Positions 30,001-36,000 of a stretch of DNA of 64,000 nucleotides are shown in pieces. Made by a program: the position numbers. The stretch comes from Zootoca vivipara. Taxonomy: Eukaryota. The stretch's first letter is position 1, and each line of letters begins with the position of its first letter. The stretch lies in contig NC_083279.1 in the NCBI RefSeq assembly GCF_963506605.1, positions 69,564,001 to 69,628,000 of the forward strand. The letters are read 5' to 3'.

Positions 30001-33000
30001 TGGGATTTGACTTACAATTTTTTCTACTTACAAATGTGTGTTTGGAACGCATTAAATTTGTAAGTAGAGGTACCACTGTATTTAACACTAAGGAGAGTGG
30101 CTGCTTAATTGCAACATAGATTTTTAAATGCATGTATCAGATGTACTACGGTACAGAAATTCCCATTGTTAATATTGGAGGCAACAAGACATTATTGAGA
30201 GGTGTCTACTGTATTCTGAGAGGTAAAACCATTTCTAATGTGCACAGAAGTCATATCACATCTAGAGTTGCAAAGGATTTACTCCTTAATTCCAAATGTA
30301 TCCAACTATATTTTACTCAGAGTAGACTCATTGAAATCAATAGACCTAAATTATTCATGTCCATTAATGGGTTTGGTGTGAATATTGTTTTAACATTGGA
30401 TACAACCCTCGAGCCACAGTGAACACAACAGCCACAGGCTCAGGTTGCTTTAAAGGGGGATGAGACAAAGTTCAAGGAGAAAACAATTATAGCTGAATAA
30501 AACATCCATGCTCAGAGGAAGCCTGCCCTTGAAGCTGCTGCCTTGAATGCCTTGTGGGCTCCCTGAACCATCTGTCTGGAAAACAGAATGCTGGACTACG
30601 TTGATCTTTGATCTGATCCAGCAAGGTTCATATATGCATTCTGTCACTTTAAAGCAGGGGCTGGGAATTTCGTTTAGCCGGAAGGCTGCAGTTTGTCATG
30701 GACAACCTTGTGGGCAGGGACAAGCAAAAGTGGAAGTGAAGGATGCAGCCCTTATGTTTGTGCAATAAACTACATTTCAACCACACAAAAACCAAAGGTT
30801 TCTATACCACATTTAACAGGATATATATACCTCTTAATCATCAAAGCCTCTAAGCCCACCAGGCCTCCTTATTTGGCCAGCCAGGCTGTTTCATGCAAAA
30901 CTATCCTGCCCACCTGTCAAAATTGGCCCATGGGAGTGGGCCCATAGGATTCCCCAGCCTGCTGTTAAGTGGTTTGCATCTTTCCATCCAGATAAGCAAA
31001 ATGCAACATCACAGTTAAGAACATGTTCCAGCCTGGCCAAAGTACTTGAGGAAGAGTCTCAAAGCCTGAGGTAGTCTCTCAAAAAGCTACATTTGGCCCC
31101 TAAGCTGGAAGTTTCCCATCCCTGCTTTAAAGACTAGCAGATTTGTGGCATGAGTTTTTTGTGTTCAGGCTTGGAACTAGTAACTATTTCAGAATTTAAG
31201 CTTGTATGTTGTTCCAGCTTTCATTTACTTTGTTCCCTTTTGCTTTCCTACTTAGATCTCCAGATCACACTAAATTTGTCGGAAGTTTCAAAACAAAACA
31301 AGACTTCATAGATTTGATTGAGGTGATTTACCGTGGAGCAATGCGTGGAAAACTAATCGTACGAAGCCCAATTGATCCAAAGAATATTCCCAAGTATGAC
31401 CTTCTGTATCAAGGCATTTAATGCCCCACAGGGAGAGGAGTGACAGGTGGAATATGAACTGCTTAAAGCTGATGATTCCACGTCTTCTCCAAACGTATGC
31501 CAATTGCATCTTGAAAGCAAAAGGAAGAAAGGAGCTGAGACTGGTCTTTTGTACTCAGGATCATATTGGTCAGCCTCAGAGACAGACTTTCATTAATTCA
31601 TTTTTCAATGGAATTGACCGGAATTGCTTAGGCTGAAACTTATTTAATTCTAATATGTCAAAGAAGCTGCAGTAGAGTAATATGTTCTTGCTCTAAATAA
31701 ATGCTTTCGGGCTATATAAGGATATAATTAACAAGAATAATTCTAGAGCTGCCATGCCCTGTAGAAGTATCCTGAAGAAAAGATAAAAGTAATGACTGGG
31801 TTTTTATTCTGAAATGTTATAACTGCTCCCACTATCTGTCCTAACTTCCCAGCCATCAACTGAACACTACATCTTCAGAAATATAAGGTATTTCTGGTTT
31901 CACAACACAAAATGGGAAATTCTTTTTTGGAAAAGGATGGTGGGTGGGAACTTAAATGTTAAAATTGGTTTATTAAAAAAATAAATATTTTAAGATATTA
32001 AGAATTAAACTCAACTGTATTGTGTCAAAGTATGATGGTGCAATAGGAAGGATGAATGAGTAAACCCATCTTTCAAGCAAAGTTTTCTAATTCTTTTTGC
32101 TATGCACTGAACTTTCCACTCACAATTGCAATGCATATATTCAGTGATTTATTCATTTTTTACTGCTGGTTCAGATTAAACACCAGACTTTTCAAAGGAA
32201 GGAAGGAAGGAAGTTTTGCCAGAAACAAGGAACAGTTGTTACATTAACATTCACATAAAGTTTCAGAAATGGAAATGGGACAACAAATATTAGACTGGTA
32301 ATGGTATGCTCCATATCTAGATAAAGTACTTTTACCTCAACGATAAGCTTAAGCATCAAAACTAGTACAAAACTTCTATTAGAAGAAAAAATGGGTATGA
32401 ATAACAGATGCTTAACTTGTTTTCATTGACTTGCTCCTTGTTAGAATAGGTGAACGATTGATCGGTTGTTTAGTGAAGACTTTCAGTGCACTCTTAAGAT
32501 ATTTGAAAATGGACTGTAGACTAGAGGAAGGAGCCAGGCTATAATTTTCAGTTCCTGTGGAGACTGTAGGGCAATCAACTTTCACCCTAAAGCCTACTGA
32601 CTTATCTAAAGGTTCACTGTGGGATACCCACTCTCGGCAATGTTTCCATATCCAGGCCTGCACCTGGGAAATGCCTTGTGTCTGGTGCGGTGTGTGGTGT
32701 GTGGAGTCAATAAGCGCAACAGCACCTACTTTGTTCATTACCTCCGAAGTTCTCTGCATGAGGAGGTCGATGAAAACCAAACCTCCATAACCATGGGCAA
32801 TGAAAGCCACCTTTTCTGCTGTGCTCTTTGAAATGAAATGGTCCCAAACGTAACTTGTATGCTCTTCAGGACTACTGCTCTCTCTCTTTGGGACTGCCGA
32901 GGGTGATTGTAGTGGACATGTGGAGTCTTTTTTCTCAGAGAGGCTGAAGCATTCTTGTTCTGTCTTCAGTTCAATGAAGTTGTCATTGGGATTTAAAACA

Positions 33001-36000
33001 ATCACTCCCCAAGAGCACTGCAGAGCCTTTATGATGAATGGTATTTGAGATCCGTGTTGGAGGCCTTCACGAACTATGACTTTTCGTCCCCACTGACCTG
33101 CACGAAAAGATCCCTTGTCTTGAAGGAGGATGACTAGAGTTGAGCAATTAGTTAATGCATTCTCACTCATGAAAAAAAAACTGCGAAGTTCATTGTCTGG
33201 AGCATCTGTTGGGATGTAAATCTTTTGCAGTTTGCATGTCTTTTCCAGGAGCTCGAAAACATACTGAGTAATTAAGCATCCAAGATATTGAAAATGTTGG
33301 TGATTAGCATTATGTGAATTTTGATAATCATAAACAAAAGGTTCATTGGTATCCATATGCCTAAGGTCCCCATTTTTATTAAAGTCATATTTGAGAGTTT
33401 CTGGACATTCTGAACCATTTATTAGTTTTCTGAAGCTCAAATCTTCATTCATCTGTGTCCACTACAAATAAAACAGACGGATCATGACATAAACAAAAAA
33501 TCATACATTTCTTGTAAAAATATTGTAGAAAATTTCAAAATATCACTGTTCAGGTGGGGACAGCAGTAAAAATAACTTTAACTTAAATCAATGCAACTTA
33601 AAAAGTGACAAATATTTTGTTTGTTGCATTTGTATCCTGTTCCATTTTTAAAGTAGCACAGAATGATGAGGGGTTTATTAGATGTTTTAAAGTGCTGGTG
33701 AGGCCCAAACCCACTAAACTTCAGTGTAAAACTTTAGTAGATACCTTCTGAGCATTCTTTGAACTGTGTAATTTTAGCCACCACTGTAGTAACAGATAAA
33801 AAATAGATCAGTTTAAACCCAGGGTATATTTCTAGTGTAGTTCTACTTGACTTTTGCCAGTATCCAGTGAAGTAGTTCTATTGGTGCCAAGACTTTTCCG
33901 TCCATCTCCTCTCCCCTAATGCCCCCTGCACAGACACCCCTAAATACAGAACATACTTACATTCATGTTGCTTGAGAATAACAGCAAAGGCTTCTAGATA
34001 CTTCTGGATATTTTGCTTCAGAGATCTGCCTGAACAGAGTCAACTATTAATATGTTGTAGTTCAGGGCTTATTGTTTCCTAATCAAGTATAGCTATGGTG
34101 CCAAATTTAAGGGCAAACAATTTACAAACTCAGTTGTGCACCACATGATAAAGATAGGCATGAAAACTGATAATGTGGGAAAGTGCTTCCTAATCTTTGT
34201 TGTATTGAGGCTTCCTTGTTCTTTGCATTTCACCGAATTCTGTAAACACCATATTGAATTCTTAAATTGCTCCCAAGTTAAAACTGCCATATGTGCCCTA
34301 TATGGCCAAAACCCAAAACACATACAACATTACACCTATGCAATCCACACAACTTGAAATGTGCACTATGAAGAATATTGTATGCCTACACCTTATGAAT
34401 GTGATGCATGAAACTAACCTTGATACCTAGGGGGTTGTAAACCTGCATATGCTCACAATACACATCTAAACATCTACTTGTGCTTTGCAATTTCTGCTAT
34501 TCAACAGAAGTTATTTTCAAAAAAGCATTATAGGACTGCACCCTTATTTATTTATATTAAGAAAATTACATGCAGAAAGGTATAACCAAAATCATATACT
34601 GTACACACACACAGAAGAGGAAGCAGCAAACTCAGGTTTCCAATTTTATGGAACTCCCAGATAAGCCTTTCCTCCTCCTCCTCCTCTCTCCTCCCTCTCA
34701 GGAGCCTCCTGGCTATTAGGCAGGTCCTGACTTATCAAGACCTTGAGAAAACCAGACATAGGGGAACTCCTTCACACCTCCTTATAATTCAGGCCCCTTA
34801 TCTGTTACATTCCTTTGGTGAGCACAGAAAGAAAAGGCCATTAGGTGGCTATACATCACTTTAGAAGCGTTAATTAAGAAACAAAGCAGGAACTGAATTA
34901 GTTCAAACACTTGATGGATTGCAGGATACAAAAACAGGGAAGAGCTTCGAAGGGTATCTGAAAACTTTCCACTAACTTCCTTTGACACATATCAAAAAGC
35001 AGGCAATATCTTTCAGCAAGCATTTCTGGTTACAGAAGCAAATGGCATTACAGTAGTTATGTTACATACAAACAGACTAGAAATACATTTCTAAGATTCT
35101 ACACCCTCTCTGTTGAATTTCTAGTGAATACTTAAAGACATTTTTTTATCCCAGCAGACAGTTTAACTGTATTCTAATTTTATAGTTTTAACTGATTTTT
35201 ATCTCTCTTGTATTCAGTTACTTTTACACCCTTTAGAGATTATTGTAATTAAGTAGTATATAAATTGTTGTTGTTGTTTAGTCGTTTAGTCGTGTCCGAC
35301 TCTTCGTGACCCCATGGACCATAGCACGCCAGGCACTCCTGTCTTTCACTGCCTCCCGCAGTTTGGTCAAACTCATGTTCGTAGCTTCGAGAACACTGTC
35401 CAACCATCTCGTCCTCTGTCGTCCCCTTCTCCTAGTGCCCTCCATCTTTCCCAACATCAGGGTCTTTTCCAAGGATTCTTCTCTTCTCATGAGGTGGCCA
35501 AAGTATTGGAGCCTCAGCTTCACGATCTGTCCTTCCAGGGAGCACTCAGGGCTGATTTCCTTAAGAATGGATAGGTTTGATCTTCTAGCAGTCCATGGGA
35601 CTCTCAAGAGTCTCCTCCAGCACCATAATTCAAAAGCATCAATTCTTCGACGATCAGCCTTCTTTATGGTCCAGCTCTCACTTCCATACATCACTACTGG
35701 GAAAACCATAGCTTTAACTATACGGACCTTTGTCGGCAAAGTGATGTCTCTGCTTTTTAAGATGCTGTCTAGGTTTGTCATTGCTTTTCTCCCAAGAAGC
35801 AGGCGTCTTTTAATTTCGTGACTGCTGTCACCATCTGCAGTGATCAAGGAGCCCAAGAAAGTAAAATCTCTCACTGCCTCCATTTCTTCCCCTTCTATTT
35901 GCCAGGAGGTGATGGGACCAGTGGCCATGATCTTGGTTTTTTTGATGTTGAGCTTCAGACCATATTTTGCGCTCTCCTCTTTCACCCTCATTAAAAGGTT

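What the first reader, a model, noticed from the sequence alone, without database searches (positions are those of the whole stretch)
32412..33966. Intact FAM172B looks like a catalytically dead ARB2-family pseudo-hydrolase, although the human locus is a pseudogene
Seen: an uninterrupted 346-351 aa ORF. Three motifs differ from FAM172A/ARB2A as I recall it. The nucleophile elbow AHSYGG is AHGYGG (Gly codon 32790-32792). The oxyanion-loop HGSG is QDKG (33111-33122). The C-terminal GTDRH is GTENY (Tyr 32541-32543). The fold motifs (RAGQW, IVLNPN, SPEEH, YVWDHF) are kept, while the basic internal insert and the C-terminal HEEL tail are absent. Known: FAM172A is an Argonaute-2/CHD7-linked co-transcriptional splicing regulator, and the syntenic human FAM172BP is annotated as a pseudogene. 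Inference: a retained, essentially uncharacterised non-catalytic paralogue that could act as scaffold, decoy or antagonist of FAM172A in sauropsids.
Basis: partly seen in the sequence, partly recalled or inferred. Interest (0 to 1): 0.78.

Follow-up and report, generated by a model that had tools for sequence, protein, structure and literature searches.

The report
Lizard FAM172B: conserved dead-site ARB2 paralogue
This is the intact lizard copy of FAM172B, an old and little-studied sister gene of the splicing regulator FAM172A that lost the enzyme-like serine before sharks and bony vertebrates split, yet has stayed conserved in vertebrates ever since.

Summary
An open frame of 346 codons lies at 32412-33452 (-), 349 stop to stop, and 351 with a two-codon first exon at 33961-33966. 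It carries AHGYGG, QDKG and GTENY at the stated codons.

It is the lacertid orthologue of FAM172B/ARB2B(P): 92% identical to the Podarcis raffonei protein, Pfam Arb2 E=1.6e-59, and next to TRMT10C as at the human locus.

Comparison with named orthologues supports the dead-site reading:
- Nucleophile position: Gly in 107 of 107 FAM172B, Ser in 118 of 118 FAM172A and 3 of 3 invertebrate homologues.
- Oxyanion loop: QDxG in 107 of 107 B, against [HQ]G[SN]G in 118 of 118 A.
- Catalytic-His position: His in 59 of 59 canonical A, but Y76/H25/R3/C3 in B.

An AlphaFold model places these residues at the classical alpha/beta-hydrolase positions.

B occurs intact in sharks, ray-finned fishes, coelacanth, lungfish, amphibians, sauropsids and 14 of 14 named mammals listed. 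The Ser loss is therefore ancestral, not sauropsid-specific.

B evolves about 5 times faster than A but keeps 55 near-invariant positions, so it is constrained. It lacks A's NLS/AGO2-binding loop and the xEEL tail. The decoy or antagonist role is untested. dN/dS could not be computed.

The parts
33961..33966 (-). Coding part of exon 1: ATG AAT (Met-Asn), followed by the donor GTAAGT.
   Evidence: Read. It matches the MNW... start of the annotated squamate and marsupial orthologues. It was not joined to exon 2 for any search.
33462..33960 (-). Intron of 499 nt, GT...polypyrimidine tract...AG.
   Evidence: This is an inference from splice consensus and orthologue N-termini. No RNA evidence was available.
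32412..33461 (-). Exon 2 coding part: 349 codons plus stop (TAA at 32412-32414). It holds the whole Arb2 domain. The internal ATG at 33450-33452 gives the 346-aa ORF.
   Evidence: Pfam PF22749 Arb2, 201.8 bits, aa 15-282; 92% identity, 100% coverage to the Podarcis raffonei FAM172B.
33111..33122 (-). QDKG (aa 111-114), the loop after strand 105-110. This is the former oxyanion-hole 'HG' loop.
   Evidence: QDxG in 107 of 107 B against [HQ]G[SN]G in 118 of 118 A.
32781..32798 (-). AHGYGG (aa 219-224), the nucleophile elbow. Gly221 (32790-32792) stands where FAM172A has Ser.
   Evidence: In the model, strand 214-220, then Gly221, then helix 222-233. The same topology holds around Ser293 in the FAM172A model. 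Gly in 107 of 107 B and Ser in 118 of 118 A.
32706..32708 (-). Asp249 in the conserved D-S-x-H motif after strand 242-248. It is kept in both paralogues, so it is not a difference between them.
   Evidence: Asp in 102 of 107 B and 116 of 118 A. Its role is not established.
32613..32615 (-). Glu280, after strand 272-276, the canonical slot for the triad acid.
   Evidence: A has Glu in 115 and Asp in 3 of 118; B has Lys in 101 of 107. The window and Podarcis have Glu. The assignment as the acid is an inference from topology only.
32541..32543 (-). Tyr304 in GTENY, the position of the catalytic-type His of FAM172A.
   Evidence: His in 59 of 59 canonical A. B has Y76, H25, R3, C3 of 107.
32907..32963 (-). 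Disordered, poorly conserved linker (aa 164-182). It stands where FAM172A carries its roughly 60-aa basic CK2/NLS loop.
   Evidence: pLDDT below 50; insert lengths; the NLS loop as described in passages of PMC10205598.
32433..32450 (-). C-terminal tail motif P-I-L-T-R-S (aa 335-340) in a disordered tail. There is no xEEL end.
   Evidence: Thr338 and Ser340 are invariant and Arg339 is at least 90% conserved in 63 B. pLDDT below 50.
32148..32153 (-). First AATAAA downstream of the stop (258 nt away). Further ones lie at 31969-31974 and 31803-31808.
   Evidence: These are candidates only.
24286..25647 (-). Neighbour gene TRMT10C, a single open frame. It serves as the synteny anchor.
   Evidence: Pfam tRNA_m1G_MT. 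E=3.7e-130 to PDB TRMT10C chains.

Best explanation
The ORF is the lacertid-lizard orthologue of FAM172B (ARB2B, carrying the symbol ARB2BP after the human locus). It is the sister paralogue of the cotranscriptional regulator FAM172A/ARB2A, and the two arose before cartilaginous and bony vertebrates diverged.

It keeps the Arb2, alpha/beta-hydrolase-like fold. On the stem of the B lineage it lost the nucleophile Ser (now Gly) and put an Asp into the oxyanion-hole 'HG' loop. Later, in sauropsids, it also replaced the triad-type His with Tyr. It therefore cannot work as a serine hydrolase.

It also lacks FAM172A's hydrophobic N-terminus, the CK2/NLS loop that holds the AGO2-binding residue, and the xEEL tail. 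It is nevertheless under long-term purifying selection.

Shown here: identity, orthology, the substitutions and their topological positions, their fixation across the family, and conservation.

Inferred: it acts as a non-catalytic binding or scaffold module. The remodelled pocket, with invariant Gln-Asp and His220-Gly-Tyr-Gly-Gly, binds rather than turns over a ligand or partner, and it acts without FAM172A's own nuclear-import loop.

Also inferred: its nearly intronless coding region suggests an ancient retrocopy. That would explain why the human locus was labelled a pseudogene.
For: Identity and orthology:
- Pfam Arb2 E=1.6e-59.
- Best named hit is Podarcis raffonei FAM172B, 92% identity over 100% of the query.
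- The B clade has SH-aLRT 99 and 100, the A clade 92 and 96, and window plus Podarcis 100.
- TRMT10C lies 7 kb away. Papers list FAM172B/FAM172BP beside TRMT10C and ZBTB11-AS1 on human chromosome 3 (passages).

Dead site:
- Gly221 in 107 of 107 named B, against Ser in 118 of 118 named A and 3 of 3 invertebrate homologues.
- Asp112 in 107 of 107 B, against Gly in 118 of 118 A.
- His304 in 59 of 59 canonical A, against Y76/H25/R3/C3 in B.
- Position 280 is Glu or Asp in 118 of 118 A, against Lys in 101 of 107 B.
- The same B signature appears in 16 further fish B sequences.

Topology:
- AF2 model with pLDDT 84 and pTM 0.84. Gly221 lies between strand 214-220 and helix 222-233, QDKG follows strand 105-110, and Tyr304 follows the last strand.
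- The FAM172A model shows the same arrangement around Ser293 and His374.
- Foldseek gives the Hda1/Clr3 Arb2 domains first (E about 1e-8), then esterases and formamidases.

Constraint:
- 55 positions are at least 98% identical across 108 B.
- The B tree follows the species tree.
- A turkey RNA-seq table lists 'putative protein FAM172B' as differentially expressed (passage of PMC12491267).

Missing A features: with passages of PMC10205598.
Against: - No dN/dS could be computed, because no orthologous vertebrate DNA is reachable with these tools.
- B evolves about 5 times faster than A. Patristic distance ratios are 4.4 to 5.6 for four species that have both genes, so constraint is weaker.
- One of the 18 named squamate records, Sceloporus undulatus, is flagged LOW QUALITY PROTEIN by its source. 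This may be an assembly error or a real lesion.
- I found no accessible paper showing that FAM172A is an active hydrolase. The 2018 PNAS paper that I recall mentioning a serine-hydrolase motif is not held. 'Pseudo-hydrolase' therefore rests on conservation of a Ser/His/acid set in A.
- The invariance of Gln111-Asp112, and the retention of His in 25 of 107 B, could mean a changed chemistry rather than none.
- Residue positions come from a predicted model and its secondary structure. No coordinates could be superposed.
- There is no expression evidence for this lizard.
- The binding-module mechanism has no direct evidence.
Confidence: 0.72

Rival explanations
1. Antagonist or decoy of FAM172A. 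FAM172B would pair with FAM172A through the Arb2 dimer surface, or compete for its partners. Having no NLS loop, it would hold them out of the nucleus or blunt FAM172A function.
For: FAM172A homodimerises in co-IP and BiFC, and Arb2 domains of Hda1 and Clr3 dimerise (passages of PMC10205598; PMC5036196). A and B share the core fold at 38-45% identity. B lacks the CK2/NLS loop.
Against: The residue needed for AGO2 binding (E229) lies inside the loop that B lacks (passage), so B is unlikely to compete for AGO2 in the same way. In Hda1 the dimer is made by the inserted arm, and the equivalent segment in B is short, disordered and poorly conserved. There are no co-expression or interaction data.
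Confidence: 0.15
2. Still an enzyme, with a remodelled active site. The invariant Asp112 in the former oxyanion loop, together with His220/His252 and, where kept, His304, would carry out a different reaction.
For: Gln111, Asp112, His220, Ser250 and His252 are invariant in 107 of 107 B. His304 is kept in 25 of 107 B long after the Ser loss. The conserved positions include the loops after strands 105-110, 214-220 and 242-248.
Against: There is no residue with a side chain at the elbow. His304 is freely replaced by Tyr, Arg or Cys. The acid-slot residue 280 is Lys in 101 of 107 B. No known alpha/beta-hydrolase mechanism uses an oxyanion-loop Asp as nucleophile; this last point is from general knowledge and was not tested.
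Confidence: 0.1
3. A decaying or non-functional copy. The open frame in this lizard would be chance survival of a pseudogene, as the human symbol suggests.
For: The locus symbol ARB2BP, and the 'putative protein' names, derive from a human pseudogene label (names). Evolution is faster than in A. One squamate record is flagged low quality.
Against: The chance of a 349-codon open frame is about 1.6e-10. Source-annotated proteins exist in all 104 named records (7 of them marked 'partial') and in further fishes and frogs. 55 positions are at least 98% identical across 108 sequences from sharks to mammals. The gene tree tracks the species tree. It is expressed in turkey muscle.
Confidence: 0.03

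Closest known systems
FAM172A / ARB2A (vertebrate cotranscriptional regulator, linked to CHARGE syndrome)
   Same: Same Arb2 alpha/beta-hydrolase-like fold and 38-45% identity. Shared motifs are RAGQW, VLNPN, SPEEH, YVWDHF, H-x-Y-G-G and D-S-x-H. It is the sister clade in the tree.
   Different: A has Ser at the elbow, [HQ]G[SN]G in the oxyanion loop, Glu or Asp at 280 and His at 304. It also has a hydrophobic N-terminus, a roughly 60-aa CK2/NLS loop and an xEEL end. B has Gly, QDxG, mostly Lys, mostly Tyr, and none of the three appendages. B evolves about 5 times faster. Almost all of B's coding sequence lies in one exon, while A shows exon-skipping isoforms.
Arb2 domains of the fungal class II deacetylases Hda1 and Clr3 (PDB 5j8j, 5ikk, 6z6f)
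   Same: These are the best structural matches (Foldseek E about 1e-8), and Clr3 is the only sequence-level PDB match (E=3.9e-5). They are also non-catalytic alpha/beta-hydrolase-like modules that act by protein binding and dimerisation (passages of PMC5036196; PMC11878206).
   Different: Only 14-15% identity, with query-normalised TM-scores of 0.44-0.48. They are C-terminal domains of a deacetylase, not stand-alone proteins. Clr3 has GGGKA at the elbow where B has AHGYGG. They lost the triad independently of B, since animal FAM172A-like proteins keep it.
Non-catalytic members of the alpha/beta-hydrolase superfamily in general (for example neuroligins, where the nucleophile Ser is replaced; recalled, not tested here)
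   Same: An enzyme fold is kept while the nucleophile is replaced, and the protein survives under selection as a binding module.
   Different: There is no sequence relationship beyond the fold. This is an analogy only.

Membership tests
Arb2 domain family (Pfam PF22749) | Match to the family HMM above its gathering score | tested here: met
   201.8 bits against a cut-off of 26.8, E=1.6e-59, aa 15-282 covering profile positions 3-260 of 260.
FAM172B / ARB2B orthologue group | Falls inside the B clade, apart from FAM172A, in a rooted tree | tested here: met
   B clade SH-aLRT 99 (46 rows) and 100 (52 rows). Window plus Podarcis raffonei 100.
FAM172B / ARB2B orthologue group | Signature residues QDxG and HG[YH]GG, and no long basic insert | tested here: met
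   The window has QDKG and AHGYGG. All 107 named B share them. The insert is 32 aa, against a median of 60 in A.
FAM172B / ARB2B orthologue group | Conserved neighbourhood with the human locus (next to TRMT10C) | tested here: met
   TRMT10C lies at 24286-25647. Papers list FAM172B beside TRMT10C, and FAM172BP with ZBTB11-AS1 and NXPE3, on human chromosome 3 (passages). The human sequence itself was not examined.
Alpha/beta-hydrolase fold | Central sheet with the strand-elbow-helix motif, and structural similarity to solved hydrolases | tested here: met
   AF2 model with pLDDT 84. 28 PDB matches at E<=1e-3, including kynurenine formamidase, carboxylesterases and esterase D. TM-scores are modest at 0.25-0.48.
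Active serine hydrolase | Nucleophile Ser in the small-x-Ser-x-small elbow | tested here: not met
   Gly221 in the window and in 107 of 107 B.
Active serine hydrolase | Catalytic His after the last core strand | tested here: not met
   Tyr304 in the window. His in 59 of 59 canonical FAM172A.
Active serine hydrolase | Oxyanion-hole 'HG' loop after strand 3 | tested here: not met
   QDKG in place of HGSG. Asp112 stands where 118 of 118 A have Gly.
Active serine hydrolase | Measured activity or probe labelling | not testable with these tools
   This needs recombinant protein and a fluorophosphonate probe or substrate panel.
Processed (retro)pseudogene | Disrupted or unconstrained reading frame | tested here: not met
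   Intact frame. 55 near-invariant positions across 108 orthologues.
Processed (retro)pseudogene | Intron-poor copy of a multi-exon parent gene | tested here: inconclusive
   349 of 351 codons lie in one exon. FAM172A has exon-skipping and alternative-last-exon isoforms. No gene structures of other species could be read, so a retrocopy origin is an inference.

The most novel reading that the evidence does not exclude
ARB2B is not a pseudogene family. It would be an ancient, possibly retrocopy-derived, protein-coding gene kept in all jawed-vertebrate classes, mammals included. Its former active site would have been rebuilt (invariant Gln-Asp, Gly at the elbow) into a binding pocket that recognises, without cleaving, whatever FAM172A acts on. 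Because it lacks the NLS/AGO2 loop, it would act as a cytoplasmic reader or trap that modulates the FAM172A pathway. The human 'P' label would then be a mis-annotation caused by the single-exon structure.
Probability: 0.2. Interest if true: 0.65.

Novelty: new member of a known kind. Interest (0 to 1): 0.38.

Why it matters
FAM172A is a disease-linked regulator (CHARGE syndrome) of AGO2 nuclear import and cotranscriptional splicing, and its own biochemistry is unsettled.

Its only paralogue carries a pseudogene symbol. It appears in the searched literature only in gene lists: 11 papers hold the name, I read passages of 4 of them and saw only the listing of the rest, and none held the zebrafish name.

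Three results bear on this:
- The paralogue is intact and constrained from sharks to mammals.
- It differs from FAM172A at the Ser, the oxyanion Gly, the His and the candidate acid.
- These changes give a natural dead-site control for testing whether FAM172A's conserved triad matters.

The results also flag a likely mis-labelled gene family. For a specialist this is useful and mildly surprising rather than a new principle, since non-catalytic Arb2 domains and pseudoenzyme paralogues are well known.

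Tried and rejected
- Complex prediction (one job) on python FAM172A residues 40-416 with the window protein returned 'no answer' with score 0.00 and no controls run. The tool did not use my alignments.
The only DNA collection open here holds bacteria and archaea, and the phage, plasmid and E. coli sets are irrelevant.
- Superposing models was not possible because the tools return no coordinates. 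I used secondary-structure order instead.
- The 2018 PNAS paper on FAM172A is not held.
- Searches for FAM172A with 'serine hydrolase', 'hydrolase', 'fluorophosphonate', 'activity-based', 'catalytic triad', 'pseudoenzyme' or 'esterase' found no paper that deals with its catalysis. A Nature Communications paper on Fam172a and histone lactylation holds none of these words.
- The protein atlas only repeated the Arb2 family.
- The profile search of the PDB gave only Clr3.
- Rfam gave no hit in the window, and there are no tandem repeats near the gene other than a TA run.
- Pfam scans of 47 other open frames named only the neighbours listed under 'noticed in passing'. The GC-rich frame 20743-21660 has no Pfam or PDB match.
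- The zinc-finger gene could not be named from the PDB.
- I considered Asp249 as the triad acid. It is equally conserved in A and B and follows strand 6, not strand 7. The better candidate by topology is position 280, but this is unproven.
- I considered a chance ORF and rejected it.

Full report
**Observation.** The minus strand carries an uninterrupted frame at 32412..33452, 346 aa from ATG and 349 codons stop to stop.
- Reading the DNA shows ATG AAT followed by a perfect donor GTAAGT at 33966-33955. A pyrimidine tract and AG end at 33462, so two codons upstream join in frame to TGG ACA CAG ATG.
- The annotated Podarcis raffonei protein starts MNWSQMNEDL, which agrees with this model.
Exon 1 contributes two codons, and everything below rests on exon 2 alone.
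- The frame is not a chance event: probability about 1.6e-10 per start, with about 2e-5 such frames expected in the window.

**What it is.** Pfam assigns an Arb2 domain over aa 15-282 (E=1.6e-59).
- Among 404 related proteins in the large protein set, the 120 listed are all FAM172B-type. 104 of them are named, from squamates, turtles, a crocodile, birds, amphibians, a marsupial and 13 placentals. The best is Podarcis raffonei at 92% identity over the full length. The window therefore comes from a lacertid-like lizard.
- A scan of 1.8 billion cluster representatives found 1263 Arb2 relatives.
- I looked up the names of ten of them before use. They gave a shark FAM172B, a bowfin protein, FAM172A of toad, dog, gecko and girdled lizard, and annelid, snail and sponge homologues.
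- A search with toad FAM172A gave 118 named FAM172A. A search with the bowfin protein gave B-type proteins of paddlefish, gar, bichir, coelacanth, lungfish, rays, sharks, frogs and teleosts.
- Trees rooted on invertebrates separate a B clade (SH-aLRT 99 and 100) from an A clade (92 and 96). Both contain ray-finned fishes and tetrapods, B also contains cartilaginous fishes, and within B the topology largely follows the species tree.
- The duplication therefore predates the split of cartilaginous and bony vertebrates.

**Synteny.** The open frame at 24286-25647 is TRMT10C (E=3.7e-130 to PDB chains). Papers list FAM172B next to TRMT10C, and FAM172BP with ZBTB11-AS1 and NXPE3, on human chromosome 3 (passages). 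I did not look at human sequence.

**The three substitutions.** I aligned the window with 107 named B, 118 named A and 3 invertebrate homologues. 18 unnamed hits were dropped first.

| Position | FAM172B | FAM172A | Invertebrates |
|---|---|---|---|
| Elbow residue 221 | Gly, 107 of 107 | Ser, 118 of 118 | Ser, 3 of 3 |
| Residues 111-114 | QDxG, 107 of 107 | HGSG 92, HGNG 22, QGSG 4 | HGSG 2, QGSG 1 |
| Residue 304 | Y76, H25, R3, C3 | His, 59 of 59 with canonical last exon | His, 3 of 3 |

- The other A records are isoforms with other C-terminal ends.
- By clade, Tyr at 304 dominates in squamates (13 of 18), turtles (3 of 3), the crocodile and birds (55 of 62). His is kept in 10 of 13 placentals, the marsupial, 5 of 6 amphibians and 3 of 3 fishes, and in most of the further fish B.
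- The Ser loss and the Gly-to-Asp change therefore happened once, on the B stem. The His loss is later and lineage-specific.
It is Glu or Asp in 118 of 118 A but Lys in 101 of 107 B. The window and Podarcis have Glu there.
- Asp249 is conserved in both paralogues.

**Do these residues sit at catalytic positions?** An AlphaFold2 model built on 81 sequences has pLDDT 84 and pTM 0.84.
- Gly221 lies exactly between strand 214-220 and helix 222-233, which is the nucleophile elbow.
- QDKG directly follows strand 105-110, the place of the 'HG' oxyanion loop.
- Tyr304 follows the last core strand, at the start of the C-terminal helix, the place of the triad His.
- A model of python FAM172A (pLDDT 69.8) has the same order around Ser293 and His374.
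- Foldseek against the PDB returns the Arb2 domains of Hda1 and Clr3 first (E about 1e-8, TM 0.44-0.48). After them come kynurenine formamidase, carboxylesterases, esterase D and other alpha/beta hydrolases.
- By sequence only Clr3 matches (E=3.9e-5), and its elbow reads GGGKA.
- Published work calls the fungal Arb2 domain an inactive alpha/beta-hydrolase-like module that dimerises and binds histones (passages of PMC5036196; PMC11878206).
- I could not superpose coordinates, so the mapping is topological.

**Is it constrained?** No orthologous DNA was reachable, so dN/dS could not be computed.
- At protein level, 55 positions are at least 98% identical across 108 B sequences. They include Gln111, Asp112, Gly114, the whole H-G-Y-G-G-L elbow, Ser250 and His252.
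- Ten positions are fixed differently in A and B.
- B evolves about five times faster than A. Ratios are 4.4 to 5.6 for Ascaphus, Pelodiscus, Opisthocomus and Pleurodeles, which have both genes.
- One squamate record is flagged as low quality by its source.
- A turkey RNA-seq table lists the gene as differentially expressed in muscle (passage).
- Taken together the gene is functional but less constrained than A.

**Other differences from FAM172A.**
- A has a hydrophobic N-terminal segment.
- A has a roughly 60-aa basic loop with a median of 17 Lys+Arg. In the literature this is the CK2/bipartite-NLS loop, which also holds E229, the residue needed for AGO2 binding (passages of PMC10205598).
- A has an x[ED][ED][LFIV] end in 58 of 59 canonical sequences.
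- B has none of these. Its equivalent linker is short, disordered and variable.
- B does keep a conserved P-x-x-T-R-S motif in a disordered, often basic tail.

**Mechanism.**
- Shown: a stand-alone Arb2 fold without nucleophile, with an Asp in the oxyanion loop and, here, Tyr for His.
- Inferred: a non-catalytic binding module whose old active-site face is still among its most conserved parts.
The loss of the AGO2-binding loop argues against a simple AGO2 decoy.
- The coding region is almost entirely one exon, while A shows exon-skipping isoforms. This suggests an ancient retrocopy and would explain a pseudogene label. It is an inference.

**Literature.**
- Eleven papers hold any of the names FAM172B, FAM172BP, ARB2B or ARB2BP. 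I saw only the listing, plus passages of three gene lists and one table.
- No paper held the zebrafish name.
- No accessible paper links FAM172A to hydrolase chemistry.
- That a 2018 PNAS paper describes a serine-hydrolase motif in FAM172A is my recollection only. The paper is not held.
- Supplementary figures of the FAM172A papers, which may show domain maps, were not seen.

**What stayed unchecked.**
- The human locus.
- Codon-level selection.
- Expression in this lizard.
- Any interaction.
- The closed metagenome and viral collections, which are irrelevant here.

**Verdict.** The phylogenetic scope is corrected from sauropsids to all jawed vertebrates. The functional role remains inferred.

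Noticed in passing
window 35278-38388 (-): A 1036-codon open frame with an endonuclease domain (Exo_endo_phos) and a reverse transcriptase domain (RVT_1). It is an apparently intact LINE ORF2 on the same strand, about 1.3 kb upstream of FAM172B exon 1. The LINE type and age were not determined.
   Followed up: partly
window 24286-25647 (-): A single-frame TRMT10C gene (mitochondrial RNase P subunit 1), E=3.7e-130 to PDB chains. It was used as the synteny anchor.
   Followed up: yes
window 28190-28690 (+): An open frame whose residues 70-117 match the first 48 residues of thioredoxin-like protein 4B (Dim1-like), E=3.3e-17. It is probably the first coding exon of a TXNL4B-like gene lying between TRMT10C and FAM172B. 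The rest of that gene was not traced.
   Followed up: partly
window 2882-6782 (+): Several open frames with C2H2 zinc fingers (2882-3199, 3639-4175, 5016-5411, 6270-6782). This is a multi-finger gene, possibly ZBTB11 by synteny with the human region named in PMC8604964, but it was not identified.
   Followed up: partly
window 32613-32615 (-), residue 280: The window and Podarcis have Glu at position 280, where 101 of 107 FAM172B have Lys and FAM172A has Glu or Asp. This looks like a lacertid change back to the A-type residue at the candidate acid slot.
   Followed up: partly
window 32433-32450 (-), residues 335-340: A short P-I-L-T-R-S motif in the disordered C-terminal tail. Thr338 and Ser340 are invariant in 63 FAM172B, and a related TRRS occurs in FAM172A. 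It may be a docking or phosphorylation motif.
   Followed up: no
proteins P0123, P0406, P0432, P0440, P0442, P0151, P0443 (not in the window): Bowfin, gar and teleost proteins named 'ARB2A/FAM172A homolog' by their source carry the B signature (QDxG, HGYGG, no long insert). Six of them fall in the B clade; P0442 was checked by motif only and was not in the tree. Their names appear to be mis-assigned.
   Followed up: yes
window 20743-21660 (+) and 20001-22000: The most GC-rich stretch of the window (0.52) holds a 305-codon open frame with no Pfam or PDB match. It may be a CpG-island first exon or just an open frame favoured by composition.
   Followed up: partly
window 33400-35199: No CpG island lies around FAM172B exon 1. 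CpG observed/expected is at most 0.29 in every 200-base block. This hints at a tissue-restricted promoter.
   Followed up: no
window 18455-18587: A run of 133 N. It was left as it is.
   Followed up: no
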